From a virus, in IMG/VR virus record IMGVR_UViG_3300005529_000030, positions 1 to 64,000 of that record: DNA of 64,000 bases; one strand, written 5' to 3'. The translations under genes and the position numbers were made by a program. Below the pieces are notes generated by a model, which searched no databases, had not been told where the DNA came from, and saw only the letters and a list, made by a program, of their open reading frames with translations. Positions 945 through 23,973 of the stretch are shown in pieces (the stretch's first letter is position 1; each line of letters begins with the position of its first letter).

Positions 945-945
945 T

Positions 946-2713: not shown

Positions 2714-2720
2714 ATTTTTA

Positions 2721-2795
2721 GGACTGTTAGGCTAACGGATAAACCAATGCGCTTCGAACGCATAATTAAGGGTTCAAATCCCTTGCGGTCCTCCA
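2721..2795 (+). tRNA. tRNA-Arg(TCG)
   Basis: atgcg-ctTCGaa-cgcat, TTCAAAT, CCA. Confidence 0.85.
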
Positions 2796-2899
2796 ATAGT
2801 TATAATGCAGCAGTGCAGAGAAATAGCAAGTGCCGTAGTTATGAGATACTTCTTCTAGTGTGAAAAAAGACTTATAACGCTTGTTGCCTTGCTTTTTAT

Positions 2900-2976
2900 T
2901 CCAGTCTGGTCCAATTTGGCAGGACGCTTGGCTGTTAACCATGAAGGTCTGGGTTCGAGTCCCAGGGCTGGAGCCA
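2900..2976 (+). tRNA. tRNA-Asn(GTT)
   Basis: ctGTTaa loop, TCC/GGA-GCCA ends typical of Asn. Confidence 0.85.
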
Positions 2977-3009
2977 AATTTTGAAATTTTTAAAGTGTCG
3001 TAAAATAAT

Positions 3010-3084
3010 GCACGATTAGTTTAATTGGTAGAATGGCCGTTTTGTAAACGGCGGGAGTTGGTTCAAATCCAACATTGTGCTCCA
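3010..3084 (+). tRNA. tRNA-Thr(TGT)
   Basis: gccgt-ttTGTaa-acggc, CCA. Confidence 0.85.
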
Positions 3085-3096
3085 ATTTTTAAGTTT

Positions 3097-3170
3097 GCTT
3101 TGTTGGTCTAGTGGCATGACAGCGGTTTCGTAAACCGCGAGCCGTGGTTCGATTCCACGACGAAGCTCCA
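3097..3170 (+). tRNA. tRNA-Thr(CGT)
   Basis: gcggt-ttCGTaa-accgc, CCA. Confidence 0.85.
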
Positions 3171-3189
3171 AAAATCGCTAAGTTTTTAG

Positions 3190-3218
3190 TTGACAAAATA
3201 AAAGTTTCATGGTACGCT
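3190..3218 (+). promoter_or_regulatory. sigma70-like promoter internal to tRNA array
   Basis: TTGACA-17 nt-TACGCT with TGn; -10 overlaps start of next tRNA. Confidence 0.45.
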
Positions 3219-3289
3219 TTGTTAGTTCAATGGTAGAACGCGCCCTTGGTAAGGGTGAAGTGAAAGTTCGATTCTTTCACGAAGCTCCA
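3216..3289 (+). tRNA. tRNA-Thr(GGT)
   Basis: cgccc-ttGGTaa-gggtg, CCA. Confidence 0.85.
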
Positions 3290-3291
3290 AC

Positions 3292-3366
3292 GGTGCTAGG
3301 GTCAGTTGGTAACGACACGGCCCTGTCACGGCTGAAGTCTGGGTTCGATTCCCAGTAGCACCGCCA
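3292..3366 (+). tRNA. tRNA-Asp(GTC)
   Basis: cggcc-ctGTCac-ggctg, GCCA end. Confidence 0.85.
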
Positions 3367-3367
3367 A

Positions 3368-3441
3368 GGCCCTGTCGTCTAAAGGCAGGACATTAGATTC
3401 TCAATCTAAGAACAGCGGGTCAGTACCGCTCAGGGTCACCA
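3368..3441 (+). tRNA. tRNA-Glu(CTC), non-canonical T-loop
   Basis: ttaga-ttCTCaa-tctaa, T-arm agcgg-GTCAGTA-ccgct, CCA. Confidence 0.8.
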
Positions 3442-3451
3442 ATTGGATAAT

Positions 3452-3526
3452 GGCGAAGTCGTCTAATGGCCAGGACATCAGCCTTTCAAGCTGAGAACGA
3501 GGGTTCGACTCCCTTCTACGCCTCCA
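3452..3526 (+). tRNA. tRNA-Glu(TTC)
   Basis: tcagc-ctTTCaa-gctga, CCA. Confidence 0.85.
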
Positions 3527-3530
3527 TTTT

Positions 3531-3617
3531 GCGTCTGTGGATGGAATTGGGCAGACACGCCAGTCTTAGAAACTGGTGCCTTCGGGCGTACAGGTTCGAG
3601 TCCTGTCAGGCGCACCA
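3531..3617 (+). tRNA. tRNA-Leu(TAG)
   Basis: ccagt-ctTAGaa-actgg, variable arm gccTTCGggc, CCA. Confidence 0.9.
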
Positions 3618-3629
3618 AATTTATGATTT

Positions 3630-3704
3630 CGTTCGGAAGCTAATCGGCTAGGCGGCGTTCTCATAAAGCGTGCATGGTTGGTTCGATTCCAACCCGAACG
3701 ACCA
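3630..3704 (+). tRNA. tRNA with CAT anticodon (Met or Ile2)
   Basis: ctCATaa loop, CGTTCGG/CCGAACG acceptor, CCA. Confidence 0.8.
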
Positions 3705-3709
3705 ATTGA

Positions 3710-3792
3710 AGCGGGGATGTGCTCCGGGTGCACACAAGACTCATAACCTTGTGGCTTGTCCAAAGTGGGTTCGATTCCCTCCCCCGCAACCA
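3710..3792 (+). tRNA. tRNA-Met(CAT), initiator-like acceptor, extended variable region
   Basis: GCGGGG/CCCCGC with 1:72 mismatch as in fMet tRNAs; ctCATaa loop; variable tgg-cttgt-cca. Confidence 0.7.
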
Positions 3793-3798
3793 ATTTTA

Positions 3799-3872
3799 GC
3801 GAAGTTAGTTTAGTGGCAGAACAAAACCTTGCCAAGGTTTGAGTACGATTTCGATTATCGTACTTCGCTCCA
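3799..3872 (+). tRNA. tRNA-Gly(GCC)
   Basis: aaacc-ttGCCaa-ggttt, GCG/CGC-TCCA. Confidence 0.85.
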
Positions 3873-3919
3873 TTTTTGTAGTATATGAGTATTCATTAGA
3901 TTTAACCGTGAGGTCTCTG

Positions 3920-4273
3920 ATGAGTCGTTCATATAGAAAGCCGTATGCTAGTTTTGTTTGCGGCTCCAATAGTGCTCGTTGGGATAAAACACAAGCAGCG
4001 AGAGCCGTTCGTCGCACTCAAAACCAAGCCATTAAGAAAGTTTTATCGAGTGGCGATTGGGACGAGTTTTTGATTCCCGACAGGTATGAGTGCAGTCATA
4101 ACGATGTTTGGGATTGGAGCCGCGATGGAAAGCAAGTTTACATGGCCAAGGATTCACAGTATAATAATCCTTTTGCTTATGTGAATTATGGGGATTTTGA
4201 GTTCGCTGTAAACTGTATGTTGGAAAGACAGAAACATACCGACAATTGGATTGCTAGGCTTTCAAGAAAATAA
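3920..4273 (+). CDS. hypothetical basic phage protein (MSRSYRKP...)
   Basis: ATG 3920 after GAGGT RBS; 117 aa. Confidence 0.65.
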   Translation: MSRSYRKPYASFVCGSNSARWDKTQAARAVRRTQNQAIKKVLSSGDWDEFLIPDRYECSHNDVWDWSRDGKQVYMAKDSQYNNPFAYVNYGDFEFAVNCMLERQKHTDNWIARLSRK

Positions 4274-4385
4274 TTTTTCGAGTCGCCAATCGCTGACTTT
4301 GTTACAATGTCGTCGAACGCTGACTTTCTACGTCGCTATTTTTTGTCTGGAAAAGGAACGTGCCGACAAGAAAATAATTTTTCGA

Positions 4386-4460
4386 GCGGGCGTGGTATAA
4401 AGGTTGTGCCTCAGCCTTCCAAGCTGAAGAAGACGGGTTCGAGTCCCGCCGACCGCTCCA
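4386..4460 (+). tRNA. tRNA-Gly(TCC)
   Basis: tcagc-ctTCCaa-gctga, TCCA. Confidence 0.9.
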
Positions 4461-4470
4461 AGTTTAACGC

Positions 4471-4546
4471 GAGTCATAGGTGTTAGTGGCAGCATATCGG
4501 TCTCCAAAACCGTAGGGTGGGGGTTCAAGTCCCTCATGTCTCGCCA
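4471..4546 (+). tRNA. tRNA-Trp(CCA)
   Basis: cggt-ctCCAaa-accg, GCCA. Confidence 0.85.
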
Positions 4547-4558
4547 AAAAGTTTTTAA

Positions 4559-4633
4559 GGCTCTGTCGTTCAACGGACAGGACCGCTGACTTCTAATCAG
4601 CGTATGCGAGTTCGATTCTCGCCGGGGCCTCCA
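4559..4633 (+). tRNA. tRNA-Arg(TCT)
   Basis: gctga-ctTCTaa-tcagc, CCA. Confidence 0.85.
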
Positions 4634-4709
4634 CGATTTGTCGTTTAATCGGATAAGACAGAAGTTTCCTAAACTTCTTATGCGGGTTCGAGTCCCGCCG
4701 AGTCGTCCA
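4634..4709 (+). tRNA. tRNA-Arg(CCT)
   Basis: gaagt-ttCCTaa-acttc; abuts previous tRNA with no spacer. Confidence 0.85.
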
Positions 4710-4725
4710 AAATCGAGGCACAAAT

Positions 4726-5067
4726 ATGAGGCCGTTAAAAGTAATGCTTTGTGCTCTCGTGTCTATCGTGAGTTATATATTAGGTGGTTTATTAAACGTT
4801 GCCGCCATATCGGCAAACAACGGTATGATGCCCGTTTATGTAGGAAAATTGACGAATCAAGAAATTTTTCTTGACAATGAGCACGTTTCAATGGCAACAT
4901 ACAGTCATTTGAAGATTTTATGTGACTATATTTCAATCGGAGATACGATAGCAAGTCCCGGAGACGTTTTATTGGTTTTAGGATTCTTGGGACTGATTGT
5001 TTCTTTTCTTGTGGCTACATATCTTATTGGAAAAGCCGTAAAGAATAAATTGAATTTGGTGAACTAG
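4726..5067 (+). CDS. DUF5317-like membrane protein
   Basis: Hydrophobic helices; N-x-G-x-MPV and L-x-D...S-P-G-D motifs. Confidence 0.65.
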   Translation: MRPLKVMLCALVSIVSYILGGLLNVAAISANNGMMPVYVGKLTNQEIFLDNEHVSMATYSHLKILCDYISIGDTIASPGDVLLVLGFLGLIVSFLVATYLIGKAVKNKLNLVN

Positions 5068-5384
5068 GCTATCGCGGAACGGTGGCTCCCTCAAACCGTA
5101 AGGTGTCGTCAAGGCGTACCTTGAGCATCGTATTACAGGGGGCGAAATTCCGAGGAAGTTCAGGACACATCTCAACATCAGACCGTGGAAGTTGCGGGCC
5201 GAGTAATTGGACGGGTAAGCCTCGATATTCTAATTATTGGCGGATAGTTAGAATCATTGGAGTCGAGAAACTCCCTCTGAGTGCAATGCCAAATAGGGCG
5301 GGAGTGAGTTGAGCACGCAGAACGCCGGGTAGGCAGCTTAGATGGATGATGGCCGTTATACAGAATCCTGGCTATTGTTCACCA
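5057..5384 (+). ncRNA. rnpB: RNase P RNA (bacterial type A-like), phage-encoded
   Basis: P1 ggtgaac/gttcacc; CR-I GAGGAAGTTCAGG; GTGCAA..CCAAATAGG; CCGGGTAGGCAGCTT; AGATGGATGAT; CR-V ACAGAATCCTGGCTA. Confidence 0.85.
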
Positions 5385-5392
5385 CATTATAC

Positions 5393-5479
5393 GGAGTGCT
5401 GGCGAAATTGGTAGCCGCACTTGTTTGCTAAACAAGCGACCGAAAGGTTGTGGAGGTTCAAATCCTTCGCACTCCGCCA
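5393..5479 (+). tRNA. tRNA-Ser(GCT)
   Basis: cttgt-ttGCTaa-acaag, long variable arm, GCCA. Confidence 0.9.
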
Positions 5480-5484
5480 ATTTT

Positions 5485-5570
5485 AGAGGGTAGCGGGAGA
5501 TGGTTCCCAACTAGTCTTGAAAACTAGGCTAACCGAAAGGTTAATCGTTCGACTCGGTTATCCTCTGCCA
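5485..5570 (+). tRNA. tRNA-Ser(TGA)
   Basis: ctagt-ctTGAaa-actag, long variable arm, GCCA. Confidence 0.85.
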
Positions 5571-5576
5571 TTTTAT

Positions 5577-5625
5577 AGTGTCACATATTTTACCATAAGC
5601 GTTTTACAGTGAAATATGTGACACT
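5577..5625. repeat. 14-bp perfect inverted repeat
   Basis: AGTGTCACATATTT-21 nt-AAATATGTGACACT between tRNA-Ser and tRNA-Cys. Confidence 0.8.
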
Positions 5626-5628
5626 TAA

Positions 5629-5704
5629 GCACGAGTAGCCAAGTGGCAAGGCATTCGTCTGCAAAACGAATATACGAAGGGTTCGATTCCCTCCTTGTGC
5701 TCCA
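5629..5704 (+). tRNA. tRNA-Cys(GCA)
   Basis: ttcgt-ctGCAaa-acgaa, U73 (TCCA). Confidence 0.9.
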
Positions 5705-5706
5705 AT

Positions 5707-5781
5707 TGCTTTGTCGAATAATTGGCAATTCGCAAGTCTTTGAAACTTGTTATTCAGGTTCGAGTCCTGACGAAGCAACCA
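5707..5781 (+). tRNA. tRNA-Gln(TTG)
   Basis: caagt-ctTTGaa-acttg, CCA. Confidence 0.85.
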
Positions 5782-5797
5782 AATTTTGAAATTTTAT

Positions 5798-5872
5798 TGC
5801 GATGTCATTCAATTGGTAGGATGCTAGTCTCTGAAACTAGTCATCTTGGTTCGAGTCCAAGCGCCGCAACCA
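5798..5872 (+). tRNA. tRNA-Gln(CTG)
   Basis: ctagt-ctCTGaa-actag, CCA. Confidence 0.85.
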
Positions 5873-5890
5873 TATTTGAGTTTTAAGCAG

Positions 5891-6097
5891 ATGAACATAT
5901 CAAAACAAGCATCAATGGGAAAGTATCTTTCTCATGGCGAGGATTTTCTTCATTTGATAAATAGGAATGGAGAAATACTTTTCTCAATTGATGGAAAAGG
6001 CACAGTACACACTCCAAGAATTACGTTTTTTGACGGAACTACTCAAATATCGGCGGCTGCCATAACCGAAACTTCAATTGATGCGGGTACTTTTTAA
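5891..6097 (+). CDS. small virion/fibre-associated protein
   Basis: ITFFDGTTQISAA and IDAGTF fibre-type motifs; stop overlaps next start. Confidence 0.5.
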   Translation: MNISKQASMGKYLSHGEDFLHLINRNGEILFSIDGKGTVHTPRITFFDGTTQISAAAITETSIDAGTF

Positions 6098-6618
6098 TGA
6101 GTCTTAATGTATCTATTCAGCTTTATCGAGGAACGAAATCTAGTTTGTCAACTTTGCCGTCCACGGGTTTTGCGGGTGTACTTGCGTGGACAACAGACAC
6201 TAATGAAATTTATGTTGATACTGGAAGCGGAACTGGAATACCTGCCGCTTGGTCTAGATTAGCCAATGATGTAAAAGTTTTTACGGCAGCCGACCAAACA
6301 TCTAGGTTGGCGCTAACTGGTGTTCTTATCGGAGATTTGTGTTTACAAGCCGATAACAATCGTACATACATTTTAACTGACGAGCCAGCGTCGAATAATG
6401 TAAATTGGACAGCCATAGGAGTTACATCGGGAACGACTATTCAGGGTTTATCGGCACCTGTAACTCATCAGTTTGTGACATATATTGATAATAACGGTGT
6501 TCAGCATTTAGCACAACCTTCATTTGCTGATATTTCAGGCTTACTCGCTCAAACTCAATTACCGACTTCGATTGGAGCAGGCTCAAGCCTAACGAATATA
6601 GATTGCGGTAGCTTCTAA
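6097..6618 (+). CDS. tail fibre-like protein with Mtd/hyaluronidase N-terminal-type domain
   Basis: IQLYRGT...G-x-LAWTTDTNEIYV; C-terminal IDCGSF. Confidence 0.65.
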   Translation: MSLNVSIQLYRGTKSSLSTLPSTGFAGVLAWTTDTNEIYVDTGSGTGIPAAWSRLANDVKVFTAADQTSRLALTGVLIGDLCLQADNNRTYILTDEPASNNVNWTAIGVTSGTTIQGLSAPVTHQFVTYIDNNGVQHLAQPSFADISGLLAQTQLPTSIGAGSSLTNIDCGSF

Positions 6619-6908
6619 TGGCTAGAAATGTAGGTATTCAAGTTTTGCGCGGCATTAAAGCAAATATGCCCATATTGCAAACGGGAGAGTTGTATTTTGC
6701 AACAGATGAAGCTCAGCTTTATGTCGGAACTTCGTCTGGAAATCAGTTAGTTTTGTTGCATCAGTTGGGTGTAGGTAATGGGGGTATTCAGACAGTACGT
6801 GCTCCTCAGAAAGGAACTGGCGACGGGCCGTCTAATCCACGCGATATAGTTGGTTTTTTGAAAATAGTTTTGTCGGGAACTACATATTGGGTTCCTTTAA
6901 TGCAATAA
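6618..6908 (+). CDS. small fibre-like protein with Mtd N-terminal-type domain
   Basis: IQVLRG...GELYFATDEAQLYVG; coupled TAATG junction. Confidence 0.65.
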   Translation: MARNVGIQVLRGIKANMPILQTGELYFATDEAQLYVGTSSGNQLVLLHQLGVGNGGIQTVRAPQKGTGDGPSNPRDIVGFLKIVLSGTTYWVPLMQ

Positions 6909-6911
6909 TTT

Positions 6912-6999
6912 CGAGTCATAGGCGGGTAAATGGAAGCCCTCTGGTTTTGGAAACCAGTGCCTAACGGCCTTGCAGGTTCGAGTCCTGCTGATTCGACCA
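6912..6999 (+). tRNA. tRNA-Pro(TGG) with extended variable arm
   Basis: ctggt-ttTGGaa-accag; variable gcc-taac-ggc; C1:G72, A73. Confidence 0.8.
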
Positions 7000-7008
7000 A
7001 TTTTTAAT

Positions 7009-7087
7009 CGAGAATTAGAGAAGCCTGGTTGTTCTCGCCTGCTTCGGAAGCAGGAGGTCCAAGGTTCAAATCCTTGATTCTCGACCA
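7009..7087 (+). tRNA. tRNA-Pro(CGG)
   Basis: cctgc-ttCGGaa-gcagg, CCA. Confidence 0.85.
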
Positions 7088-13352: not shown

Positions 13353-16121
13353 ATGCCTTTGGCGGGATTAGAAAAAGGTAAAAATAATTTTATTAATAAG
13401 CGTATAAACGACCAAAAAAGTTTTTGGCCAGGATACGTTAAAAAATGGGATGAAGAAAACGGCGGAAAAAGATTTCGTTCAGAGATAATGTCTTTGTCGG
13501 AACTTTGGAAGCTTTATTTGACGGGAGTTAGTACGGAGCTTTCAGCGGAAGAAGAAGCTCGTGGTAAAAAACCCGACAAGATAGACAGAATAAGTCAAGT
13601 TGTTCCTATAAAAGCATTTGAGTTACCGGGCCGATTTCACGAGCCATACATAACCGAAGACGGGACTAGAATTCACAAGGAAGGTTGGGGATACCTTCAT
13701 TTCGACCAATGGTTATATGCGCGAGACCAAGCCAGAAAGGATTTGTTTTGGCTGTGTAAAGAAGTCTTCAGTATGGACTTGTATGAAGATGTACATAGGG
13801 TTGTATGCAATCAGTTTGTGAGTAAAAATTTCGACGGTGTTTATGAAGAAAATTACTCTCTAAGGGACTTTCATCGCGCTTTGTCTAATCAGAGTCGCGT
13901 TCCTACGATTTGGGCGGAAACGAAGCCATATGTGAATGGATATTTTCCTGAAAAAACTCTTGACGATTATGGAAATTATATAAGAGACCCAATAGAAGAA
14001 ACGAAACAAACAAATTTTGCTAAAACGATGATTCTTTTAGACCCTCGTGGGTTTTTTAAATCATCTATAGACGTTGCTGATTGTATTCAGTGGATTATTA
14101 ATTGCCCCGACATAAGAATTTTGATTGTTAGCGGAGTTAATAAACTAGCGGCTCAATTTATGGTGGGCGTTAAGCAAGGGCCGAAAGGAAAGTCATTCTA
14201 TCTTCCGAGAGGGGTTCCGCCGTCTCCGTTTCATTATTTATTTCCTGAATTTGTAGTTCGCGGAGTGGATGGAACTTCAAAAGAAGATTTCCGCGTTAAC
14301 GAAAATATAAAAAAACATCTAAGTTTGGACCCAACTCTCGGAATTATTTCAGTGGGTTCGTCTTTATCGGGTTTTCACTGCGACGTTTTGAAGTTTGACG
14401 ATATAGTTACAGACGATAACTGTCTAACAGAAGATGCGCGAGAAGCCATTCTTTTGAAAGCAGACGGCGCGGTCAATTTGTTAATGGATTGGGGTTGGCA
14501 CGATATTATCGGAACTAGATATTATCCCGATGATTATTACGGCCAAACAGAGGCAACTCACAAGAAAGACCCTGAGATGTTCAATCTTAAATTCTTTCAA
14601 AGGGCCTGTTGGACCGTCAAGGAAGAGTTTAAGGACGTAGAAGCTAGAAGTTTATATGACCTTACGGAAGATATGGTCACGTTGACTTTTCCTCAGAAGC
14701 ACCCTAAAGGTCCGCATTATTCTTGGTTGGAGCTAAGAGCCAAACTTAAGAATGAAAAAAGTTTTAGATGTTTTCCTGCTGGGTCAAAAGTTCTCATGGG
14801 TGATTGGACTGAGAAAGCAATAGAGGATATTAGGCCCGGTGACGAAATAATAGGTTTTGATAGCGGCTTAAAGAAGGCTGTTGTTACTCATGTTCACGAG
14901 AAGCGAGATTTAGTTTCCAAGTTTCTAACAGAACAGGGGCGTACTATCTTCTCGACAAGAGACCATAAATTTCTTCGACCTAATACAGGAAAAAAGAAAG
15001 TTTATGGACCTTTGAAAATAGGAACTAAAGTTGTTTCTGTTTATAGCCCGTCAGGAGAATTGCTTTCCAAACAATGCAGTCGAGATATGGATTGGCTTAG
15101 AGGCGGCTCATCTATAGATAAAATTATTTCTATAGAAGATTTGAACGAGCAGCCTGTTTACACTCTCACGACAACTACAGGAAATTATGTTTGCCAAGGT
15201 TTTGCTGTGGCTAATTGTCAGCAGCTTAATCAGCCTGTTTGGGGCGAAGAATCCACAATTAGTTTCGACAGGCCGTTATTGGAATCTAGGAAAACTAAAA
15301 CTTTATCGGAAGTTTTGTCTGTGCCCGGATATGTTTACGGCGCCATTGATTTGGCAAAAGAGAATAAACAGTTTTCCGATTATACCGCTCTAGCTATAGG
15401 AAAAGTGTACCAAGAAGGAGTCGGTATAATTCGTCCGGATGAAAACGGTAATCTTCCAGAAAGACCCGACGGAAAATGGGTCATGGTCATATTGGACGTG
15501 GAATTCGGAAAGTGGTCTCAAACTGAGATAGCTAACCGAATTGCTAAAATGAACGATAAATGGCGACCTAAAAGATGGTACGGAGAAGACCTTGGCGGAT
15601 TGCAGACCTTCAAAGAAAAAATAATAGAAGTGTCAAAAACAACTTATGGTCATTGGCCGTATATTCCGTGGGTTACACCCGATAACAACGAAAATTCAAA
15701 GAGAAATAGAATTAAGGGCGTTGAAATTCTTCTTAGAGCGTCAAGACTATATTTTCTAATTGCGCCTTGGAATGTGGATGTTTTTGAACAGCTTGAAAAT
15801 TACAAAGGTCAAAAAAGCACTCGTTATTCTAAAGACGATGTGCCCGATGTAATTTCCCTTCTAACGAAGTTTATTCCGTCTTTGGTCCCTCTATCGAAAA
15901 GAGAGATGGAGCAAGTGGCAATTCAAAGAGAGACGGAATACAAAGAATTGCTTAGAAGAGAAATAAAGAAAGTTGTTTTCGGGGACGACGGCGGGGGTTT
16001 CGGAGTGAATAATATTAATAGAATATGGACAGAAGTGGAGTCTCCCAAAGAAGACACTAATCGGGGTCCGATGGCGGACATTAGCCGAAAATTTTTCGGC
16101 GGTAATGGAATGCGAGCATGA
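13353..16121 (+). CDS. terL: terminase large subunit (intein-containing)
   Basis: Walker A PRGFFKS, Walker B DVLKFDD, GTRY coupling motif, RNase H-like GAIDLA..SDYTA and DDVPD. Confidence 0.9.
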   Translation: MPLAGLEKGKNNFINKRINDQKSFWPGYVKKWDEENGGKRFRSEIMSLSELWKLYLTGVSTELSAEEEARGKKPDKIDRISQVVPIKAFELPGRFHEPYITEDGTRIHKEGWGYLHFDQWLYARDQARKDLFWLCKEVFSMDLYEDVHRVVCNQFVSKNFDGVYEENYSLRDFHRALSNQSRVPTIWAETKPYVNGYFPEKTLDDYGNYIRDPIEETKQTNFAKTMILLDPRGFFKSSIDVADCIQWIINCPDIRILIVSGVNKLAAQFMVGVKQGPKGKSFYLPRGVPPSPFHYLFPEFVVRGVDGTSKEDFRVNENIKKHLSLDPTLGIISVGSSLSGFHCDVLKFDDIVTDDNCLTEDAREAILLKADGAVNLLMDWGWHDIIGTRYYPDDYYGQTEATHKKDPEMFNLKFFQRACWTVKEEFKDVEARSLYDLTEDMVTLTFPQKHPKGPHYSWLELRAKLKNEKSFRCFPAGSKVLMGDWTEKAIEDIRPGDEIIGFDSGLKKAVVTHVHEKRDLVSKFLTEQGRTIFSTRDHKFLRPNTGKKKVYGPLKIGTKVVSVYSPSGELLSKQCSRDMDWLRGGSSIDKIISIEDLNEQPVYTLTTTTGNYVCQGFAVANCQQLNQPVWGEESTISFDRPLLESRKTKTLSEVLSVPGYVYGAIDLAKENKQFSDYTALAIGKVYQEGVGIIRPDENGNLPERPDGKWVMVILDVEFGKWSQTEIANRIAKMNDKWRPKRWYGEDLGGLQTFKEKIIEVSKTTYGHWPYIPWVTPDNNENSKRNRIKGVEILLRASRLYFLIAPWNVDVFEQLENYKGQKSTRYSKDDVPDVISLLTKFIPSLVPLSKREMEQVAIQRETEYKELLRREIKKVVFGDDGGGFGVNNINRIWTEVESPKEDTNRGPMADISRKFFGGNGMRA
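14769..15215 (+). mobile_element. mini-intein (149 aa) in terminase
   Basis: Starts CFPAGSKV, TRDHKF block B, ends VYTLTT..GNY..GFAVAN/C; no full endonuclease. Confidence 0.85.
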
Positions 16122-18226
16122 CAGAACCGTTAAACGAGCACGCGCATAATGTATTAGAACAAAGAGTGATTACACCTGTAGCAGATATTACTTCTGCGGA
16201 AATACACAAAGATAAAGAAACAGGAACGTATCAGTTTTCAGATAGGGCCGCATTAAAATTGGTTCTAGATGATGCTTCTTTGGCTGATAATTATGCGAAT
16301 ATCAATCAGTGGGCATCGCAATGGGCGCAATCATTAATTCTCCTTCAGAGTCCGCAATCAGCGGCGGCTTTCGATGGAGTATTTATGAGTTCCGTTCCGA
16401 AGTTTACTCTATCGAATCATATAAGCAGTATTGTGCCTAAAATTATGGAGGGTTTGTTTTATGAAGACCCTCCTTTTTTACTTAGACCCAGACCAGGAAC
16501 TAAACAGGAACTAGTAAGAGCTAAAACTGCCTTATTTTCCGCCCAATTGTGGGACATGAAGTTTGAGGAAGAGGTTGAGGCGGGTTTAGAGCAAATGGCC
16601 CTATTCGGAACTTGCATATTTAAATGGGGATATTTAGAGCGAGATGACACTGTTAAAAAATACAGGAGAAAATCGGAAAAAGTTCCCCTTACTAGTGGTT
16701 TATTAAATGATTTAATTGATACTCCAGATAGTGACGATTATGAGATATTGACCGAGGTCGTTAAGATAAGTCGCCCATGGTTTAAATGTACTGACATTCG
16801 TACAGTTTTGGTTGACCCCGGCTGTCGTGTTGGAGATATACGAAAGGCGAAGTGGGTAATTTATCGTGACTACGCCACATTTGATGATTTAAATGCTCTT
16901 AGAGAAGTTCCCGGCTACGACATCCCCGATGAAGAAGCTTTGAAATCATTCTTTCTATCGAATGAAATGTCGGGGCCGGATAATATTACCATGACAATTC
17001 CAGAAGGCATGCGTGGATATTTACAGCAAGCCTTGCCTAGGAATTTCAGAACTTCTGCCGACCATTTACAGAACCCAATGGAAATTTTAGAGCGTTGGGA
17101 TGCTGATAAAGTTATTGTCGTATTGTCATTCGGCGGAAAAAATATTCTTATCCGAAACGAGCCTAATCCTTACGGAAAAATTCCGTTTTATAGTGCAAAT
17201 TGGCGTAATTTAGTTGATTCTTTTTACGGTCAGGGATTGGGACAATTAATAGGAGCCGAGCAAGTTGTAGAACAGGGTGTGACAAATCTTTCTCTTGATT
17301 TACTAGCTTATGGTTTGCAGCCAACGGCGGTTAGAAAGAAAGGGTTCAATGTTCCTACCCAAATGGTTAGATGGAAGCAGGGTGGAATTATTGACGTTGA
17401 TGACGACGTAGATAAAGCATTTAAGTTCTTGCAAATGCCGAATGTCCCTGGTGAGGCTTGGGCATTTATTCAGCAAGCTCAGGGTACCGCTCAACAAACA
17501 TCGGGCGCAAACGAACAGGTTATGATGGGCGCAGGCAGCGCAGGAATTAAAACAACAGGAATGCGTACTGCGACAGGAGCTTCGGCCATCATTCAGGCTA
17601 ATGCGTCTAGATTGGATGGTCCTAGCGGTCGTTTTGTAAGACAAGTATTTGTTCCTTGGTTGTATCAGATGGATGAACTTAATAATGACCTTCTTCCTAC
17701 GTCTGTTTTAAGAAGAGTTTTAGGCGAAGAGTTGGGCAATGAATACATGGTTGACCATGTAGAATTTAGAAACGCTAGATTTGAATATGAAGTTTTGGCT
17801 GGCGGTCATTTGGGGGCTAAAAAAGAAATGGCCCAATTTTTGCCGATTGTCGTTCAGCTTTTGAACAATCCTACATTTGTGAAAAACGTAAACGATGCGG
17901 GTTATCAATTTAATGCGGCGGCAATCTTTAAGGCTTTTGCTGATGCGGCAGGATGGAAGTTTAGTCAGGACTTCTTAGAAAAGATGACGCCGGAGCAACA
18001 GCAGAAATATGAAGCAAATTCTCCTGCTGCTTTGCAAGTAGCACAAGCGCAGATAGCGCAACAATTACAGACTCAGAAATTTGAGCAAGAAAAAGAACTA
18101 GAAGACCAACGTCAGCTTGGCAAGGCGGGAGCCGAAGTTCTTCGTCAAGCCACCGAACACAGTCTTCAAAGTGAAATAGGCAGAGAACCGCCGCCGGGGA
18201 GCTACGGTTTTGAAACAGCACTTTAA
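16118..18226 (+). CDS. portal protein
   Basis: 702 aa after terL; FGTCIFK, FYGQGL, RTATGA motifs. Confidence 0.85.
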   Translation: MTEPLNEHAHNVLEQRVITPVADITSAEIHKDKETGTYQFSDRAALKLVLDDASLADNYANINQWASQWAQSLILLQSPQSAAAFDGVFMSSVPKFTLSNHISSIVPKIMEGLFYEDPPFLLRPRPGTKQELVRAKTALFSAQLWDMKFEEEVEAGLEQMALFGTCIFKWGYLERDDTVKKYRRKSEKVPLTSGLLNDLIDTPDSDDYEILTEVVKISRPWFKCTDIRTVLVDPGCRVGDIRKAKWVIYRDYATFDDLNALREVPGYDIPDEEALKSFFLSNEMSGPDNITMTIPEGMRGYLQQALPRNFRTSADHLQNPMEILERWDADKVIVVLSFGGKNILIRNEPNPYGKIPFYSANWRNLVDSFYGQGLGQLIGAEQVVEQGVTNLSLDLLAYGLQPTAVRKKGFNVPTQMVRWKQGGIIDVDDDVDKAFKFLQMPNVPGEAWAFIQQAQGTAQQTSGANEQVMMGAGSAGIKTTGMRTATGASAIIQANASRLDGPSGRFVRQVFVPWLYQMDELNNDLLPTSVLRRVLGEELGNEYMVDHVEFRNARFEYEVLAGGHLGAKKEMAQFLPIVVQLLNNPTFVKNVNDAGYQFNAAAIFKAFADAAGWKFSQDFLEKMTPEQQQKYEANSPAALQVAQAQIAQQLQTQKFEQEKELEDQRQLGKAGAEVLRQATEHSLQSEIGREPPPGSYGFETAL

Positions 18227-19803: not shown

Positions 19804-22800
19804 ATGGCTGGAGGCCCAAACCCGGCAATTGCTAATGTCGGGAATATATTAACGGCTCAAAGCATCCTCAAGTAAGGGGCTGTTTCGAGGGAAACAGAAA
19901 TCTTCTCTGATTGACTTGGAACCTGAAATGGCGACAAGGCGGAAGCGCAAGCACCGTGAGAGACTAAGCGAGAAGACACCTAAAAGGTGATACGATAGTC
20001 CGTTCTAATAGGAAAGAAAACTGTTAGGGAAAAACGCTTTGATAAGGAGCTAATCCCGAACTTATTTTTATAGAGTGAAATGCCGAAATTTGATAATCTT
20101 ACTGGAGTGAAATTCGGACGCCTGACGGTTATAAGCAGAGCACCAGACGCCGTTTCTAAATCTGGTTTCGTATATACAAGATGGAATTGTTTGTGCGATT
20201 GCGGAAAAGAGAAAACGATATATGCTGGTTCTTTAAAAAGAGGAGTAACCGTTTCTTGCGGTTGCCAACTTAAACAAGTTTGGCGACGAATAGGTCTTTC
20301 CAGTATCAAACACGGCGGCAGTTCAAAAGATGCGTCGGTAGATAAAAAAATACAATTTCAAATTTTACAACATATCCGTCAGCGAGCCAGAGCCAACGGA
20401 TATGAAACTGATTTAGAATTATCGGATATACCTGAAGTTCCTGATGTTTGTCCGGTTCTCGGAATTAAACTTAAAAAAGGAAAAGGTCCTCTATCTGATT
20501 TTTCTGTATCTATTGATAAAATCAATCCTAATTTACCGTATCTTAAAAAATACAAAAATAATTTGCGATTGATTTCATATAGAGCTAATCGTATTAAAAA
20601 CGACGCTACTATTGATGAATTGGAAAAAATCATTCTATATATAAAAATGAGCCGCTCTGAAGAGAGCGAGAATCTTCTCTGATTGACTTGAAACCTGAAA
20701 TGGCAACAAGGCGGAAACCGAAAAGGTGCCGTGAGAGACTAAGCGAGAAGACGCCGAAACGGCGATGCGATAGTCCGCTCTAACAAGAATAAAATTGTTA
20801 GTTAACAACAGGAAAGGGAGAAACGGATGCATTTGTTGTTGCCGCCGAGCGTCGTGTTCAACCGAATAACACTGGTATTAACCGCCAGTTTTTTCAGTAC
20901 AATACGCTTGTAGGTGACACAACCCAAGCTGGTGATGGTGTTATCGGAGCACCAGAGTTCATTGGTCAGATTTCATCTCCGGCTCAACTGGGCGAATGGA
21001 ATAACTATACCAACTTTAGCGCGTTTGTTGTTGCGAGCGCACTAGATGATTTGGTTGGAAACAGCGCAGTTGAACTTGGGTAAAACTTGATGCCCAAGTA
21101 AAATCACGTTATATCAGATTAGGTCTTTTTCTAAAAAGATGAGTCTGAGACATTGTATATTGCCTTAAGGCAGAAGAGGAACTAGAAGTGCAAAGAAAAT
21201 CTTGGCCGTATGTGGCCGGAATATTGGATGCCGAAGGAACTATTGTTATTGGCGAAACAAACGGTGGTTTTTATTCTAAAATAAAAATTTCCAACACCAA
21301 CAAAAAGTTAATGAAGTGGTTGGTTCAAAATTTTGGAAATGTTTTTTATAAAAACCTAAATTCAAGAAGTAATAGAAGTGTTTTATATGAATGGAATTGT
21401 TTAGCCAATCAACAAGAGGCTTTTCTTTTAGGCGTTTTGCCGTTTTTATTGGTTAAGAAACCTCAAGCTTTGACTTTGCTTGAGTTCAGAAGAACCGAAT
21501 CGTTGGAAGAAAAAAAGAAGTTGTGCGACAGAATAAAACAGCAGAATCAGCGTCTTATTGAGAATAAAACTTCTTTTATTAATTCTCATAACAAAGACCG
21601 TTTTAAATATGCTGCCGGATATATGGATGGAGACGGTGGTTTTTATTTCGGAGATTCGAGCCATACAAGAATATATCTAACGAGCATAGATTTTATAATT
21701 ATAAAATGGTTTTTAGCTAATTTTGGCGGTAAATTCTATAAATACAATTCTTCTAATGAAAATCATTCTGACTACTTTAGGTGGGTTCTTAGCGGACGGA
21801 AAAATAAAAAGTTGTTTTTGCTTGGAACTATCCCGTACATGATTTTGAAGAGGGAGCAAGCAAAAAATCTTTTACAAATTATAGATTCTAGTTCTGTTCA
21901 AACGACTAATACACGTGAGATTTCCTCGTCGGAAATCAAGAAAGAGTCTTAACTTATTGGTGACAATAAGAGCTTAATTTCTGTGAAGAAAATTAACTAA
22001 AAACATTTAATCAGGCTGGCCAAAGCATCTCTCAGTTATACGCTGCCGTTGCAGACAGCGCAGCAACTGTAGATTCTCAGGTAAACCAAAGCAGCTTGTT
22101 AACCTCTCCATTTGTTTTGGATTTGGCTACGTTACGTGAATTGAAACAGCAGTTAGTTTCAAAGAACGTACTACCAAACCGAAATGGAAGGTTCGCAGGA
22201 GTTATTTCGCCTAACGTTTTGGGCGATATTTTCAACTCGACCACAGTGAACAACTCCATCAACTAAGGTGGACATTTAACGAAAGTTAAATTGAATAAAT
22301 CAGTTCTAATTGACTCGAACCCTGGGATGGGAACGAGGGCCAAGCGAGACGACGCAGGCTGAGAGAACAAACGAACTGACTCCCAATAGGGAGATGCAAT
22401 GTTCCGTTCTTGTGAGAATCATTCTTTTGATTGGAGAAAAATTCGGTCGTTTACTAGTTATCAAAAAAGCGTTTTCCAAACATGGACGCTCTCGTTGGAT
22501 TTGTCAGTGCGATTGTGGTAAAACTTATAACGTTTTAGGTCACAACCTTCGCAAGGGAAAAACTAAAAGTTGTGGATGCTTGCGAAAAGAGTCGGCACGT
22601 AATTTAATCAGTTTCGCCAAGGAAAAAAACTTTTTAAGTCCTGGCGAAGCGGCCTTTAACGTTATGTATTATACGTACAAACAGCACGCAAATGAACGAG
22701 GATTGGATTTTAGTTTGGAAAAAGATAGTTTTCGGCATTTAACACAAATGAATTGTTATTATTGCGGAGACGAGCCGAAGGATTTTTTCAAGCCTAAAGC

Positions 22801-23412
22801 TCCTAATGGCGGATACCTAAGTAACGGAATAGACCGAAAAGATAACGCGATGGGATATACAATTGAAAATTGTGTTCCATGTTGTCGAATCTGCAATCAA
22901 ATGAAAAGTAATAAATCATACGAAGATTTTATTACTCGTTGTTGGAAAATCACAAGAGGCCACAAGCCCTCTACTTTGGTAGAGTAACAACAAGCGTTGA
23001 CCTGTGGAAATATGCAAATATGGATAAGTTCGATAAAATCGCTGGCGCAGACCAGAAGATGGACATCGAACTTCCCGGCACTTCTATCGTATTACGACAG
23101 ACGCCTTTCGTAACTACGACGCCTAATTATTCTGGAACGACAAGCACCGCATATCGTACCTATATCTTCGGACAGTACGCAATGATTGGTGTTTGGCAGA
23201 ATGTACCAGGCGATACCGATTTGGGAGACGGAGATTGGCGCACTATTGACTGCAAGGTAGTTGAGAATGCACCAGCGTCTGCGTTTGACCCGGTTGGTAC
23301 AATCGGAAGCTGGTGTTCTTATAGATTCCACCAGACGGTAACTCTACCGCCTGCTCGTGGGGCAAACACTCAGCGCCTTCGCTTCATAGATAGCGTACCT
23401 GCTATTCAGTAG
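19804..23412 (+). CDS. major capsid protein (N4-gp56-like), 5 exons: join(19804..19868,20037..20063,20813..21081,22010..22259,22995..23412), 342 aa
   Basis: Exons sum to 1029 nt in one frame: MAGGPNP...SIL|FDKELIPNL|KGETDAFVVAAERRVQP...ELG|YQAGQS...NNSI|VDLWKY...FDPVGTIGSWCSY; GAGGG RBS; position after scaffold. Confidence 0.85.
19869..20036 (+). ncRNA. group I intron 1 (168 nt, no ORF)
   Basis: P1 CCU|C..GGGG with U-G; P3 TCTTCTC/GAGAAGA; P7 GACTA/TAGTC; terminal G. Confidence 0.85.
20064..20812 (+). mobile_element. group I intron 2 with HNH endonuclease
   Basis: Core ~20668-20812 closely matches intron 1 core; terminal G restores L-K-G-E frame. Confidence 0.85.
20080..20682 (+). CDS. intron-encoded HNH homing endonuclease
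   Basis: KFGRLTV..WNCLCDCG..SCGC DNA-binding module; CPVLG..SIDKI.P..Y..N...IS.RAN.IK. Confidence 0.85.
   Translation: MPKFDNLTGVKFGRLTVISRAPDAVSKSGFVYTRWNCLCDCGKEKTIYAGSLKRGVTVSCGCQLKQVWRRIGLSSIKHGGSSKDASVDKKIQFQILQHIRQRARANGYETDLELSDIPEVPDVCPVLGIKLKKGKGPLSDFSVSIDKINPNLPYLKKYKNNLRLISYRANRIKNDATIDELEKIILYIKMSRSEESENLL
21082..22009 (+). mobile_element. group I intron 3 with LAGLIDADG endonuclease
   Basis: P1 ACTTGGGU/GCCCAAGT; P10 CTTGAT/ATCAGG; P3 TCACGT/ACGTGA; P7 GACT/AGTC. Confidence 0.8.
21188..21952 (+). CDS. double-motif LAGLIDADG homing endonuclease
   Basis: YVAGILDAEG and YAAGYMDGDG. Confidence 0.9.
   Translation: MQRKSWPYVAGILDAEGTIVIGETNGGFYSKIKISNTNKKLMKWLVQNFGNVFYKNLNSRSNRSVLYEWNCLANQQEAFLLGVLPFLLVKKPQALTLLEFRRTESLEEKKKLCDRIKQQNQRLIENKTSFINSHNKDRFKYAAGYMDGDGGFYFGDSSHTRIYLTSIDFIIIKWFLANFGGKFYKYNSSNENHSDYFRWVLSGRKNKKLFLLGTIPYMILKREQAKNLLQIIDSSSVQTTNTREISSSEIKKES
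22260..22994 (+). mobile_element. group I intron 4 with HNH endonuclease in P9
   Basis: P1 TCCAU|C..GGTGGA; P3 TCAGTTC/GAACTGA; P7 GAACA/TGTTC; P9 CTTGTG/CACAAG; terminal G. Confidence 0.85.
22310..22987 (+). CDS. intron-encoded HNH homing endonuclease (true start probably ~22394-22427)
   Basis: KFGRL..WICQCDCG..KSCGC; CYYCG..NGIDRKDN..GYT.ENCVPCC..CN.MK. Confidence 0.85.
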   Translation: MTRTLGWERGPSETTQAERTNELTPNREMQCSVLVRIILLIGEKFGRLLVIKKAFSKHGRSRWICQCDCGKTYNVLGHNLRKGKTKSCGCLRKESARNLISFAKEKNFLSPGEAAFNVMYYTYKQHANERGLDFSLEKDSFRHLTQMNCYYCGDEPKDFFKPKAPNGGYLSNGIDRKDNAMGYTIENCVPCCRICNQMKSNKSYEDFITRCWKITRGHKPSTLVE

Positions 23413-23514: not shown

Positions 23515-23973
23515 ATGCAATTACCCGATTCTCTTAGTTTAGCTGGGTTAAAGCCGGGAACCAAGGAATATGCTCGAATGACGGGTCGTAGATATTACTA
23601 TCGTCACCGTGACAAGGAAAAGGCCCGCACTAAAATTTGGCGATTGTCTAATCCCGATAAATATAAAAAATGGGTTGAGAAAAACAGAATTAAATTAATA
23701 CAAGCGGCTCGGCGACATGACCATCAAGTTACCTCTGAATGGTTTGAATTAAAATTGAAACAACAAAACGGTCGGTGTGCCATTTGTAATAAAATTCCAA
23801 AAAGATTTGATATAGACCACAACCATTCCTGTTGTCAAGGAAGGAAAAGTTGTCATAAATGTAATCGTGGTTTGCTATGTCGAAGTTGTAATACTTTTAT
23901 AGGGTTGGCAAAAGAATCTACAGATTTTCTTTTGTCCGCTATTAATTATCTACAACAGTATAATAAGGATTGA
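23515..23973 (+). CDS. endonuclease VII-type free-standing nuclease
   Basis: Q.GRCAIC..DIDHNH.CC....C..C.RGLLC..CN..IG. Confidence 0.85.
   Translation: MQLPDSLSLAGLKPGTKEYARMTGRRYYYRHRDKEKARTKIWRLSNPDKYKKWVEKNRIKLIQAARRHDHQVTSEWFELKLKQQNGRCAICNKIPKRFDIDHNHSCCQGRKSCHKCNRGLLCRSCNTFIGLAKESTDFLLSAINYLQQYNKD

What the first reader, a model, noticed from the sequence alone, without database searches (positions are those of the whole stretch)
19869..20063. 168-nt minimal group I intron followed by a 27-nt micro-exon
Seen: intron 1 retains P1, P3, P4-P6, P7, P8, P9 in 168 nt, shorter than the ~205-nt Azoarcus model intron; the next intron starts 27 nt later. Inference: candidate for one of the smallest natural group I ribozymes; skipping the 27-nt exon keeps frame (both flanks phase 2), so alternative splicing could yield a 9-aa-shorter capsid isoform.
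Basis: partly seen in the sequence, partly recalled or inferred. Interest (0 to 1): 0.75.

Follow-up and report, generated by a model that had tools for sequence, protein, structure and literature searches.

The report
168-base self-splicing intron in capsid gene
A soil phage's main shell-protein gene is cut by four introns, and the first is a complete but unusually small (168-base) ribozyme-type intron followed by a 27-base exon, one member of a large family of compact phage introns that the standard RNA database model does not detect.

Summary
Window 19869-20036 is a 168-nt ORF-less group I intron in the major capsid protein (MCP) gene of an uncultured soil phage. It is followed by a real 27-nt exon (20037-20063) and a second, 749-nt intron of the same family that carries an HNH-type endonuclease gene.

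- **Boundaries:** They are fixed by intron-less homologues. Joining five exons gives an open 342-aa MCP, 303/344 identical to an uninterrupted relative.
- **Structure:** In 18 introns 93.8% of cells pair, against 35-43% in slid controls.
- **Family:** Rfam's group I model finds nothing here, yet the family is abundant in viral contigs.
- **Size:** The 168-nt intron belongs to a short class (168-177 nt) that lacks the two 3' hairpins present in most members. It is smaller than the 205-nt Azoarcus intron, but degenerate fungal introns of 56-81 nt are known.
- **Exon skipping:** It keeps the frame and has phage precedents, but exon 2 encodes a nearly invariant peptide, so a useful isoform is unlikely.
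- **Missing evidence:** No RNA data were available, so splicing is inferred and not shown.

The parts
19804..19868 (+). MCP exon 1 (65 nt; ends in phase 2; last base U19868)
   Evidence: ATG at 19804. The N-terminus matches intron-less homologues. Part of the spliced model.
19869..20036 (+). Intron 1: 168-nt ORF-less group I intron, short class
   Evidence: Boundaries come from homologues. Covariation supports the fold. Family HMM hit of 122.3 bits.
19866..19879 (+). P1: 19866-19869 pairs with 19876-19879 (guide GGGG); U19868·G19877 wobble at the 5' splice site; loop 19870-19875
   Evidence: Found by the MFE fold and the P1 scan.
19880..19897 (+). P2 hairpin, 7 bp (19880-86/19891-97), 4-nt loop
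   Evidence: MFE fold. 6 of the 7 pairs (1 unchanged) are changed on both sides yet still paired relative to L009.
19901..19976 (+). P3: 19901-19907 pairs with 19970-19976; it encloses P4-P6 and crosses P7 (pseudoknot)
   Evidence: 100% of cells paired and 6/7 pairs with double changes. 98.4% canonical over 168 cores.
19915..19956 (+). P4-P6 domain in 42 nt: P4 19915-18/19935-38; P5 19922-23/19930-31; P6 19940-42/19954-56; P6a 19945-46/19951-52 with a GNRA loop at 19947-50
   Evidence: In this copy 19921/19932 is an A·C mismatch where relatives have C-G.
19960..20001 (+). P7: G19960-C20001, bulged A19961, 19962-66 paired with 19996-20000 (G19962-C20000 is the presumed guanosine-binding pair); P8 hairpin 19977-80/19986-89 lies inside
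   Evidence: Across 168 cores, 19960:20001 covaries A-U 94 / G-C 73 with no unpaired combination, and 20001 was not part of the search pattern. P8 is 100% paired, 3/4 pairs with double changes.
20005..20027 (+). P9 hairpin, 7 bp (20005-11/20021-27), A-rich 9-nt loop
20028..20036 (+). 9-nt 3' tail ending in the terminal G20036; it lacks the two extra hairpins of the long class; a possible P9.0 (20002-04 with 20033-35) is my inference
   Evidence: Alignment A2. 143 of 168 distinct cores have the extra-hairpin motif downstream.
20037..20063 (+). MCP exon 2, a 27-nt micro-exon encoding (L)FDKELIPN(L); its first 3 nt can pair with 19870-72 (P10, inferred); its last 4 nt form P1 of intron 2
20064..20812 (+). 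Intron 2: 749-nt group I intron of the same family; guide 20073-76; HNH-type endonuclease ORF 20080-20682 in place of P2; core 20671-20801; short-class tail
   Evidence: Core 84% identical to the intron 1 core. ORF hits phrog_374 and phrog_3322. Boundaries.
20813..21081 (+). MCP exon 3
21082..22009 (+). Intron 3: 928 nt with a LAGLIDADG-like ORF (21188-21952); not of this family; by homology its last base is A, not G
   Evidence: No family HMM hit.
22010..22259 (+). MCP exon 4
22260..22994 (+). Intron 4: 735-nt family member (core 22299-22419) with an HNH ORF (about 22394-22987) downstream of the core
22995..23412 (+). MCP exon 5 (with stop codon)

Best explanation
Window 19869-20036 is a genuine group I intron that must be removed from the capsid mRNA by the usual two transesterifications. 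In the first step guanosine attacks after U19868, which is held in P1 by the guide GGGG. In the second step exon 1 attacks after G20036.

It is an ORF-less, pared-down member (the 'short class') of a large family of compact phage introns. It keeps P1-P9 with a 42-nt P4-P6 domain. It has lost the two 3' hairpins that most members carry, and it has no endonuclease gene.

**Shown**
- The exon junctions.
- The conserved, covarying secondary structure.
- Family membership.
- An intact core.

**Inferred**
- That it actually splices, alone or with help.
- That it spreads passively. It lies only 27 bp from the insertion site of intron 2, so homing by the intron 2 HNH endonuclease could co-convert it.
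- That the family reaches new sites by reverse splicing into ...CCU sequences.
- That it is a derivative of an endonuclease-bearing intron. L032 carries a 775-nt endonuclease-bearing intron at the same site.
For: **Junctions**
- Intron-less relatives read straight across both junctions.
- The five-exon join is 1029 nt, open, 342 aa, and 303/344 identical to the L007 MCP.
- Unspliced, the frame stops after 23 codons.

**Structure**
- 93.8% of cells pair against 35-43% in slid controls. 32/43 pairs have double changes and 0/500 shuffles match.
- RNAalifold recovers P3-P6, P8 and P9.
- In a sequence-only alignment of 168 distinct cores, P3, P4, P6 and P7 are 98.4-99.9% canonical, with balanced alternative pairs.

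**Splice-site rules**
- U at -1 and a terminal G were the selection criteria for the 21 family introns examined, so they are not a result. 18 of them have a P1 of at least 4 bp including a U·G pair.

**The copy is not decayed**
- Against its nearest relative (intron 2), 36 comparable pairs are 32 unchanged, 1 changed on one side but kept, 3 compensated and 0 broken. Against L009 the split over 42 pairs is 31/1/10/0.
- It deviates at only 1 of 40 columns that are at least 93% conserved. Of 168 cores, 112 have 0 deviations and 22 have 1.

**Family and siblings**
- 47 HMM hits in the window plus the related MCP loci.
- Short-class siblings of 169, 171 and 174 nt sit in the same essential gene of other contigs.
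- Endonuclease-bearing relatives share the same short tail: L010, L032 site A and window intron 2.

**Persistence**
- Identical DNA occurs in contigs of four soil and mine metagenome runs from up to three studies. Two of those runs may be the source of this DNA.
Against: **No direct evidence of splicing**
- No RNA run was available, and none of this was tested in vitro.

**Rfam does not recognise it**
- Rfam RF00028 gives no match at E <= 10 in the window or the whole record, nor in four loci with longer family members. The model does ring in control genomes.

**This copy has possible weaknesses**
- P1 is only 4 bp.
- P5 is 2 bp plus an A·C mismatch where relatives pair.
- A19992 in J8/7 sits where 98% of cores have G.
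- The 3' tail lacks the UAACA motif seen in nearly all relatives.
- The two 3' hairpins are absent.

It could therefore be slow or dependent on a cofactor. Four of eight Bastillevirinae introns spliced only in infected cells (PMC11878797, abstract).

**Bias in the conservation figures**
- 119 loci were fetched with a pattern that fixes columns 19956-67 and 19990-20000, so conservation there is inflated.
Confidence: 0.85

Rival explanations
1. The intron is real but is not an autonomous ribozyme. Having lost its 3' peripheral hairpins, it splices only with a protein helper (an intron-encoded endonuclease acting as maturase, or a host factor).
For: - It lacks the hairpins found downstream of 143 of 168 cores.
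- P1 and P5 are weak and J8/7 has an unusual base.
- Four of eight tested Bastillevirinae introns spliced only in vivo (PMC11878797, abstract).
- Three endonuclease genes sit within the same gene.
Against: - Nothing direct.
- Short-class introns occur in contigs where the fetched locus shows no endonuclease-bearing intron in the MCP gene, for example L009 and L019. Those loci are only partial genomes.
- Engineered deletions of the 3' domain of the T4 sunY intron stay active (recalled, not checked here).
Confidence: 0.3
2. The two tandem, closely related introns skip exon 2 at an appreciable rate, and the resulting MCP lacking 9 residues is a functional isoform.
For: - Exon 2 is 27 nt and both flanks are in phase 2.
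- Exon skipping by tandem phage group I introns is documented for Twort orf142 and for one SIOphi gene (PMC11878797, passages).
- All P3, P4, P5, P6 and P7 pairs are identical between introns 1 and 2. A chimeric core using the 3' P7 strand and terminal G of intron 2 is therefore feasible (my inference).
Against: - The skipped peptide FDKELIPNL is identical in 44 of 48 related loci, and 2 more differ by one residue.
- No relative lacks it.
- The P10-type pairing of intron 1 fits exon 2 (CUU), not exon 3 (my reading).
- Intron 1 is transcribed and can fold about 780 nt before the 3' end of intron 2 exists.
- RNA-level skipping as a by-product is plausible (about 0.3). A functional isoform is not.
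Confidence: 0.04
3. Intron 1 is a decaying, non-splicing relic, and this capsid gene (and phage) is dead.
For: - No RNA evidence.
- The atypical tail and the J8/7 base.
Against: - No helix pair is broken relative to two relatives, despite 18-20% sequence divergence with compensated changes.
- The exons are intact and 88% identical to an intron-less MCP.
- The same sequence, without a single difference, is in contigs of four runs from up to three metagenome studies.
Confidence: 0.05
4. 19869-20812 is one composite intron (a twintron or nested element), and the 27 nt are not an exon.
For: Two cores lie close together. Gene callers would not see a 27-nt exon.
Against: - The 27 nt encode exactly the residues that intron-less relatives have between the two sites. 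Differences from L032 are only synonymous.
- Relatives carry an intron at only one of the two sites: L032 at site A, and L009 and others at site B.
- Each core has its own guide sequence matching its own upstream exon.
Confidence: 0.02

Closest known systems
[quoted passage not shown]
   Same: A compact bacterial-type group I intron without large peripheral domains. It has P1-P9, a short P4-P6 and no ORF.
   Different: - The window intron is 37 nt shorter and sits in a protein-coding phage gene, not a tRNA.
- Its P4-P6 domain is only 42 nt, and it has no hairpin after P9.
- Self-splicing is proven for Azoarcus and untested here.
- Subgroup membership was not tested. I had no reference alignments, and Rfam's model does not hit.
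Tandem group I introns with exon skipping in phages: Twort orf142 (Landthaler & Shub 1999, seen only as cited in PMC11878797; full text not held) and one SIOphi gene (PMC11878797, passages; named terminase in the results, polymerase in the discussion)
   Same: Several related group I introns in one phage structural or replication gene, small internal exons, and a documented joining of the first intron's 5' site to the next intron's 3' site.
   Different: Here skipping is only arithmetically possible. There is no RNA evidence. The intron family is different (no Rfam hit) and the introns are much shorter.
Capsid-gene intron of Cluster J mycobacteriophage LittleE and the 265-bp insertion in BAKA/Optimus tail genes (PMC3706429, passages)
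   Same: An intron in the major capsid gene of a tailed phage that must be spliced efficiently. Related endonuclease-bearing and endonuclease-free copies sit in different genes.
   Different: LittleE has a single intron of about 820 nt, with the endonuclease ORF on the opposite strand. This window has four introns, three of them from one compact family.
PaSSU and related 56-81-nt degenerate group I introns of fungal SSU rDNA (PMC3160393, abstract and passages)
   Same: Natural group I-derived introns far below the usual size.
   Different: Those introns lack most core helices and end in U instead of the terminal G. The window intron keeps the full canonical core.
Deletion derivatives of a group I intron in Streptococcus thermophilus phage lysin genes (Foley et al. 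2000; seen only in the reference list of PMC11878797)
   Same: Natural shortened versions of a phage group I intron coexisting with longer forms.
   Different: Paper not read. The sizes and the parts deleted there are unknown to me.

Membership tests
Group I intron | The 5' splice site follows a U that forms a U·G wobble with an internal guide sequence in P1 | tested here: met
   U19868·G19877 lies within a 4-bp P1. The same holds in 18 of 21 family introns, each with a P1 of at least 4 bp.
Group I intron | The last intron nucleotide is G | tested here: met
   G20036. The junction is fixed by intron-less homologues, apart from a 1-nt C/C ambiguity.
Group I intron | Helices P3-P9 in the canonical order, with P3 and P7 forming a pseudoknot around P4-P6 and P8 | tested here: met
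   (93.8% paired, 32/43 pairs with double changes).
Group I intron | Guanosine-binding G-C pair in P7 next to a bulged nucleotide; conserved J8/7 and R/S-type core sequences | tested here: inconclusive
   - G19962-C20000 is invariant in 168 cores. The flanking pair 19960:20001 covaries across bulged 19961.
- The match to the classic Tetrahymena arrangement is recalled, not computed.
- J8/7 carries a rare A at 19992.
- Function cannot be tested here.
Group I intron | Match to the curated covariance model Rfam RF00028 (gathering score 50 bits) | tested here: not met
   - No match at E <= 10, while the control genomes ring.
- PMC11878797 (passages) states that the Rfam and GISSD models may miss phage introns.
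- I treat this as a gap in the model, not as exclusion from the class.
Group I intron | Guanosine-dependent splicing, with or without protein | not testable with these tools
   No RNA holder is listed among the public runs.
Group I intron | P10 pairing between the guide region and the 3' exon | tested here: inconclusive
   Only 3 bp are possible (19870-72 with 20037-39), by my reading. No covariation test was done.
Subgroup IC3 (Azoarcus/cyanobacterial tRNA introns) | Subgroup-specific junction lengths, P7 constraints and tetraloop-receptor contacts (L2-P8, L9-P5) | not tested
   No reference alignments were at hand. There are no insertions between P7 and P3 or between P3 and P8. This argues against the IA type with P7.1/P7.2 (that feature is recalled).

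The most novel reading that the evidence does not exclude
The short class (168-177 nt, five distinct ORF-less introns here plus endonuclease-bearing relatives) would be the smallest natural group I ribozymes that keep the complete canonical core. They would self-splice without protein despite lacking any structure beyond P9. That would make them a naturally minimised catalytic scaffold, about 18% smaller than Azoarcus, drawn from a family of hundreds of natural sequence variants that current RNA-family models do not see.
Probability: 0.4. Interest if true: 0.7.

Novelty: new variant of a known kind. Interest (0 to 1): 0.55.

Why it matters
- **Minimal ribozyme.** Small, well-folding group I ribozymes are workhorses for RNA folding studies, structural biology, trans-splicing and circular-RNA production. 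A natural 168-nt version with a full core, plus many natural variants showing which parts can go, would define the minimal working architecture better than engineered deletions.
- **Annotation.** The family escapes Rfam RF00028 and splits capsid, coat and ribonucleotide reductase genes into fragments. GenBank records annotate those fragments as separate CDSs (MW202674.1, OR420741.1). Gene callers therefore truncate a key viral marker gene.
- **Intron spread.** One gene holds the family at six or more sites, often after ...CCU. This makes it a compact natural data set on how introns spread.
- **What is ordinary.** Introns, micro-exons and even exon skipping in phage genes are already known, so the multi-intron arrangement itself is not remarkable.

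Tried and rejected
- **Rfam.** Gathering and E <= 10 searches of the window, of the 3.9-kb gene region and of four related loci, plus RF00028 over the whole 72.6-kb record, gave no group I hit.
- **RNA evidence.** No RNA holder was listed among 11 runs. Laying four DNA runs gave identical contigs and no joints, so they say nothing on splicing or on intron-less alleles.
- **blastn against 50,697 phage records.** Only two records matched with the window gene and one with a long-class intron. No experimentally studied phage could be linked to the family.
- **Pfam.** Nothing for the intron 2 and intron 4 ORFs or for the MCP. PHROGs named them.
- **Literature on the smallest group I intron.**
  - The phrase 'smallest group I intron' returned 0 papers.
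  - Searches gave only PaSSU (67 nt) and unrelated uses of 'smallest'.
  - Search 58 was swamped by unrelated text.
  - Passages of the GISSD paper and of the 2025 database paper give no minimum length.
  - I therefore cannot state that no canonical intron under 168 nt is in print.
  - Supplementary tables of PMC11878797, GISSD and PMC11835236, which may list lengths, are closed.
- **Twort paper.** PMC22036 is not held.
- **Earlier scan notes.** Nothing by place or by sequence.
- **Readings considered and dropped.**
  - A twintron or single composite intron.
  - Translational bypass: a covarying ribozyme fold and clean junctions make it unnecessary.
  - Intron 1 as a recent copy of intron 2: it is only 82-84% identical, with compensated changes.
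- **Covariance model.** I did not build one. The sequence HMM already recovered the family.
Full report
**What the window is**

The window is the first 64 kb of a 72.6-kb IMG/VR virus record. Upstream lie 27 tRNA genes. An SU10-type portal gene sits at 16118-18226. Two small or scaffold-like ORFs follow, and then a gene starting at ATG 19804.

Its product is a major capsid protein (MCP):
- An intron-less relative hits phrog_1357, 'major head protein'.
- Exon 3 hits the annotated major head protein of Tunturiibacter phage Tunturi_3 at 32.5% identity.

**Checking the observation**

Read straight on, the frame from 19804 stops at 19873-75. A scan of IMG/VR with the C-terminal exon returned 49 related loci.
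- In 20 of the 49, a tblastn query with the 344-aa L007 MCP gives one uninterrupted match.
- These intron-less genes read ...TAQSIL FDKELIPN LKGETDAF....

This places the window's junctions exactly:

| Piece | Coordinates | Length |
|---|---|---|
| exon 1 | 19804-19868 | 65 nt |
| intron 1 | 19869-20036 | 168 nt |
| exon 2 | 20037-20063 | 27 nt |
| intron 2 | 20064-20812 | 749 nt |

Two further introns lie at 21082-22009 and 22260-22994. Joining all five exons gives 1029 nt with no internal stop, a 342-aa protein that is 303/344 identical to L007.

**Is it a group I intron?**

By hand I folded:
- P1: 19866-69/19876-79, with U19868·G19877
- P2: 19880-86/19891-97
- P3: 19901-07/19970-76
- P4: 19915-18/19935-38
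- P5: 19922-23/19930-31
- P6/P6a: 19940-42/19954-56 and 19945-46/19951-52, with a GNRA loop
- P7: G19960-C20001, bulged A19961, then 19962-66/19996-20000
- P8: 19977-80/19986-89
- P9: 20005-11/20021-27
- a 9-nt tail ending in G20036

The MFE fold recovers P1, P2, P3, P8 and P9 (z = -2.17).

Covariation on an alignment of 18 ORF-less relatives whose boundaries were set by homology:
- 93.8% of 752 cells form standard pairs, against 35-43% with partners slid by 1-3 columns.
- 32 of 43 pairs show changes on both sides, and 0 of 500 shuffles reach the observed values.
- RNAalifold, which knows nothing of my fold, predicts the same P3, P4, P5, P6, P6a, P8 and P9, with 30 pairs of which 23 have compensatory changes.

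In a purely sequence-based alignment of 168 distinct family cores:
- P3, P4, P6 and P7 are 98.4, 99.0, 99.4 and 99.9% canonical.
- Alternative pairs are balanced, for example 19942:19954 G-C 84 / C-G 82.
- Across the bulge, 19960:20001 is A-U 94 / G-C 73 with no unpaired combination. Position 20001 was not part of the pattern used to fetch the loci.

The 21 family introns examined were chosen to have U before the intron and G at its end, so that is not a result. 18 of them have a P1 of at least 4 bp including the U·G pair. The order of helices, the P3/P7 pseudoknot and the bulge next to an invariant G-C pair in P7 are those of group I introns. The comparison with Tetrahymena's P7 and with the classic R and S core sequences is from memory.

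The one failed test is Rfam:
- RF00028 gives nothing at E <= 10 in the window, in the whole record or in four loci with longer members.
- The same model rings in control genomes.
- A 2025 study states that the Rfam and GISSD models may fail on phage introns (PMC11878797, passages).
- I read the miss as a blind spot of the model.

**The family**

A core HMM built from 11 sequences finds 47 copies in the window and the related loci. Three are in the window: introns 1, 2 and 4.

In this MCP gene the family sits at many sites: residues 22/23 (site A), 29/30, 31/32 (site B), 206/207, several places between 310 and 323, and beyond 340. 14 of the 21 examined introns follow an exon ending in CCU and use a GGG-type guide, spread over four sites. 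That pattern is what spread by reverse splicing into short matching sequences would produce (inference).

Occurrence outside this gene:
- blastn links the core to a split 'P22 coat protein' gene in MW202674.1 and a split ribonucleotide reductase gene in Roseobacter phage CRP-118. Both are annotated as separate CDSs.
106 of the 119 fetched loci hold 144 near-full cores.
- The same pattern hits only 31 stretches among 185,579 species genomes, all in metagenome bins.

The family is therefore essentially viral.

**Why 168 nt**

Most members (143 of 168 distinct cores, by a crude motif test) continue after P9 with two further hairpins and a conserved UAACA-containing tail. This gives ORF-less lengths of 198-247 nt.

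A short class ends 9-13 nt after P9:

| Intron | Length | Basis |
|---|---|---|
| window intron 1 | 168 nt | homology |
| L009 | 169 nt | homology |
| L019 (same as L020) | 171 nt | homology |
| L041 | 174 nt | homology |
| L116, which also lacks P2 (longer tail, about 23 nt) | about 177 nt | my hand estimate |
| one in L076 | about 183 nt | my hand estimate |

The endonuclease-bearing introns L010, L032 site A and window intron 2 have the same short tail. So 168 nt is the smallest I found but is not an outlier. For comparison:
- Azoarcus is 205 nt (PMC3895272, PMC13168695, passages).
- Degenerate fungal introns of 56-81 nt exist, and the 67-nt PaSSU intron has shown group I activity (PMC3160393, abstract and passages).
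- My searches did not settle whether a canonical intron under 168 nt is already in print.

**Is this copy alive?**

Its nearest relatives are intron 2 of the same gene (82-84% identical) and site-B introns of other contigs (78-81%).
- Against intron 2, 36 comparable pairs are 32 unchanged, 1 changed on one side but kept, 3 compensated and none broken.
- Against L009 the figures over 42 pairs are 31/1/10/0. P2 is changed on both sides at 6 of its 7 pairs yet is still fully paired.
- It deviates at 1 of 40 highly conserved columns, within the family's normal range. Some of those columns were fixed by my search pattern.
- The identical sequence occurs in contigs of four runs from up to three metagenome studies. 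Two of those runs may be the source of this DNA.

Against full vigour:
- P1 is 4 bp.
- P5 has an A·C mismatch where relatives pair.
- 19992 is A where 98% of cores have G.
- The tail lacks UAACA.

I conclude that it has been under selection to fold, and so to splice. Whether it does so alone is open.

**Origin and spread (inferred)**

L032 carries, at exactly the same site A, a 775-nt intron with the same GGGG guide and a tail ending in the same four bases as the window's. It holds an endonuclease gene in the P1 loop, and that endonuclease is homologous to the one in window intron 2. Window intron 1 therefore looks like an endonuclease-free derivative. Lying 27 bp from the insertion site of intron 2, it could be co-converted whenever that intron's HNH endonuclease (phrog_374 and phrog_3322) drives homing.

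**The micro-exon and skipping**

Exon 2 takes part in both ribozymes without overlap. Its first three bases can pair with 19870-72 (P10 of intron 1). Its last four form P1 of intron 2.

Skipping it is mechanistically conceivable:
- All P3-P7 pairs of the two introns are identical, so a chimeric core could form.
- Exon skipping by tandem phage group I introns is documented for Twort orf142 and one SIOphi gene (PMC11878797, passages).

But the peptide that would be lost is identical in 44 of 48 related loci, and no relative lacks it. I therefore rate skipped RNA as a possible by-product (about 0.3) and a functional isoform as unlikely (about 0.04).

**Verdict**

This is a real and well-supported compact group I intron. 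Its family is large, viral and missed by the Rfam model. Multi-intron capsid genes with micro-exons are already known, including in earlier notes of this scan. The new element is the naturally minimised short class. Splicing itself remains to be shown.

Noticed in passing
window 21082-22009: Intron 3 carries a LAGLIDADG-like ORF at 21188-21952 (PF14528 just below cut-off, phrog_5046). It is not hit by the family HMM or by Rfam. A 7-bp P1-like pairing with a U·G wobble fits a 5' splice site after U21081. But homology with intron-less MCPs (...VELGYQAGQ...) forces its last base to be A, not G, under either of the two possible registers. Its type is unexplained.
   Followed up: partly
window 22260-22994: Intron 4 is a third family member. 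Its P7 carries two compensated pair changes relative to introns 1 and 2. An HNH endonuclease ORF (about 22394-22987) is inserted after the core, and it has the long-class tail.
   Followed up: partly
window 20072-20082 and 20680-20682: In intron 2 the guide sequence (20073-76) lies within the purine-rich stretch just before the endonuclease start codon (20080). P1 formation could therefore mask the ribosome-binding site. The ORF's stop codon is the invariant UGA of J3/4.
   Followed up: no
window 23515-23973: A free-standing endonuclease VII / HNH-like ORF (phrog_2633, phrog_2914) lies directly downstream of the capsid gene.
   Followed up: no
window 11-7084: A cluster of 27 tRNA genes on the + strand.
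   Followed up: no
L001 2692-4207 (MW202674.1) and L002 2010-4083 (OR420741.1): GenBank records annotate a P22-type coat protein gene and a ribonucleotide reductase gene as two separate CDSs each. In MW202674.1 a 'hypothetical protein' is also called inside the gap. The gaps hold members of this intron family, so these look like unannotated introns.
   Followed up: partly
L181 5700-7320: A 209-kb contig of a Bryobacterales (Acidobacteriota) genome bin encodes an MCP 77% identical to the intron-less L007 MCP used as query (itself 88% identical to the window's), interrupted by family introns. Other pattern hits are in Terriglobia, Terracidiphilus and Acidobacteria bins. This hints at an Acidobacteriota host, in line with the Tunturiibacter phage match.
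   Followed up: partly
L032 6112-6520; L050 6277-6730; L030 5224-5427; L116 1605-1781: There are further micro-exons between family introns, for example a 48-nt exon at L032 6319-6366. Some family members lack P2 altogether (L030 at 204 nt, L116 at about 177 nt). The gene carries from none to at least five introns among relatives.
   Followed up: partly
whole family (window 19899-20027, 20671-20801, 22299-22419; L006-L204): Rfam RF00028 detects none of the family members tested, although the family is abundant in IMG/VR. A dedicated covariance model would be needed to annotate these introns.
   Followed up: partly
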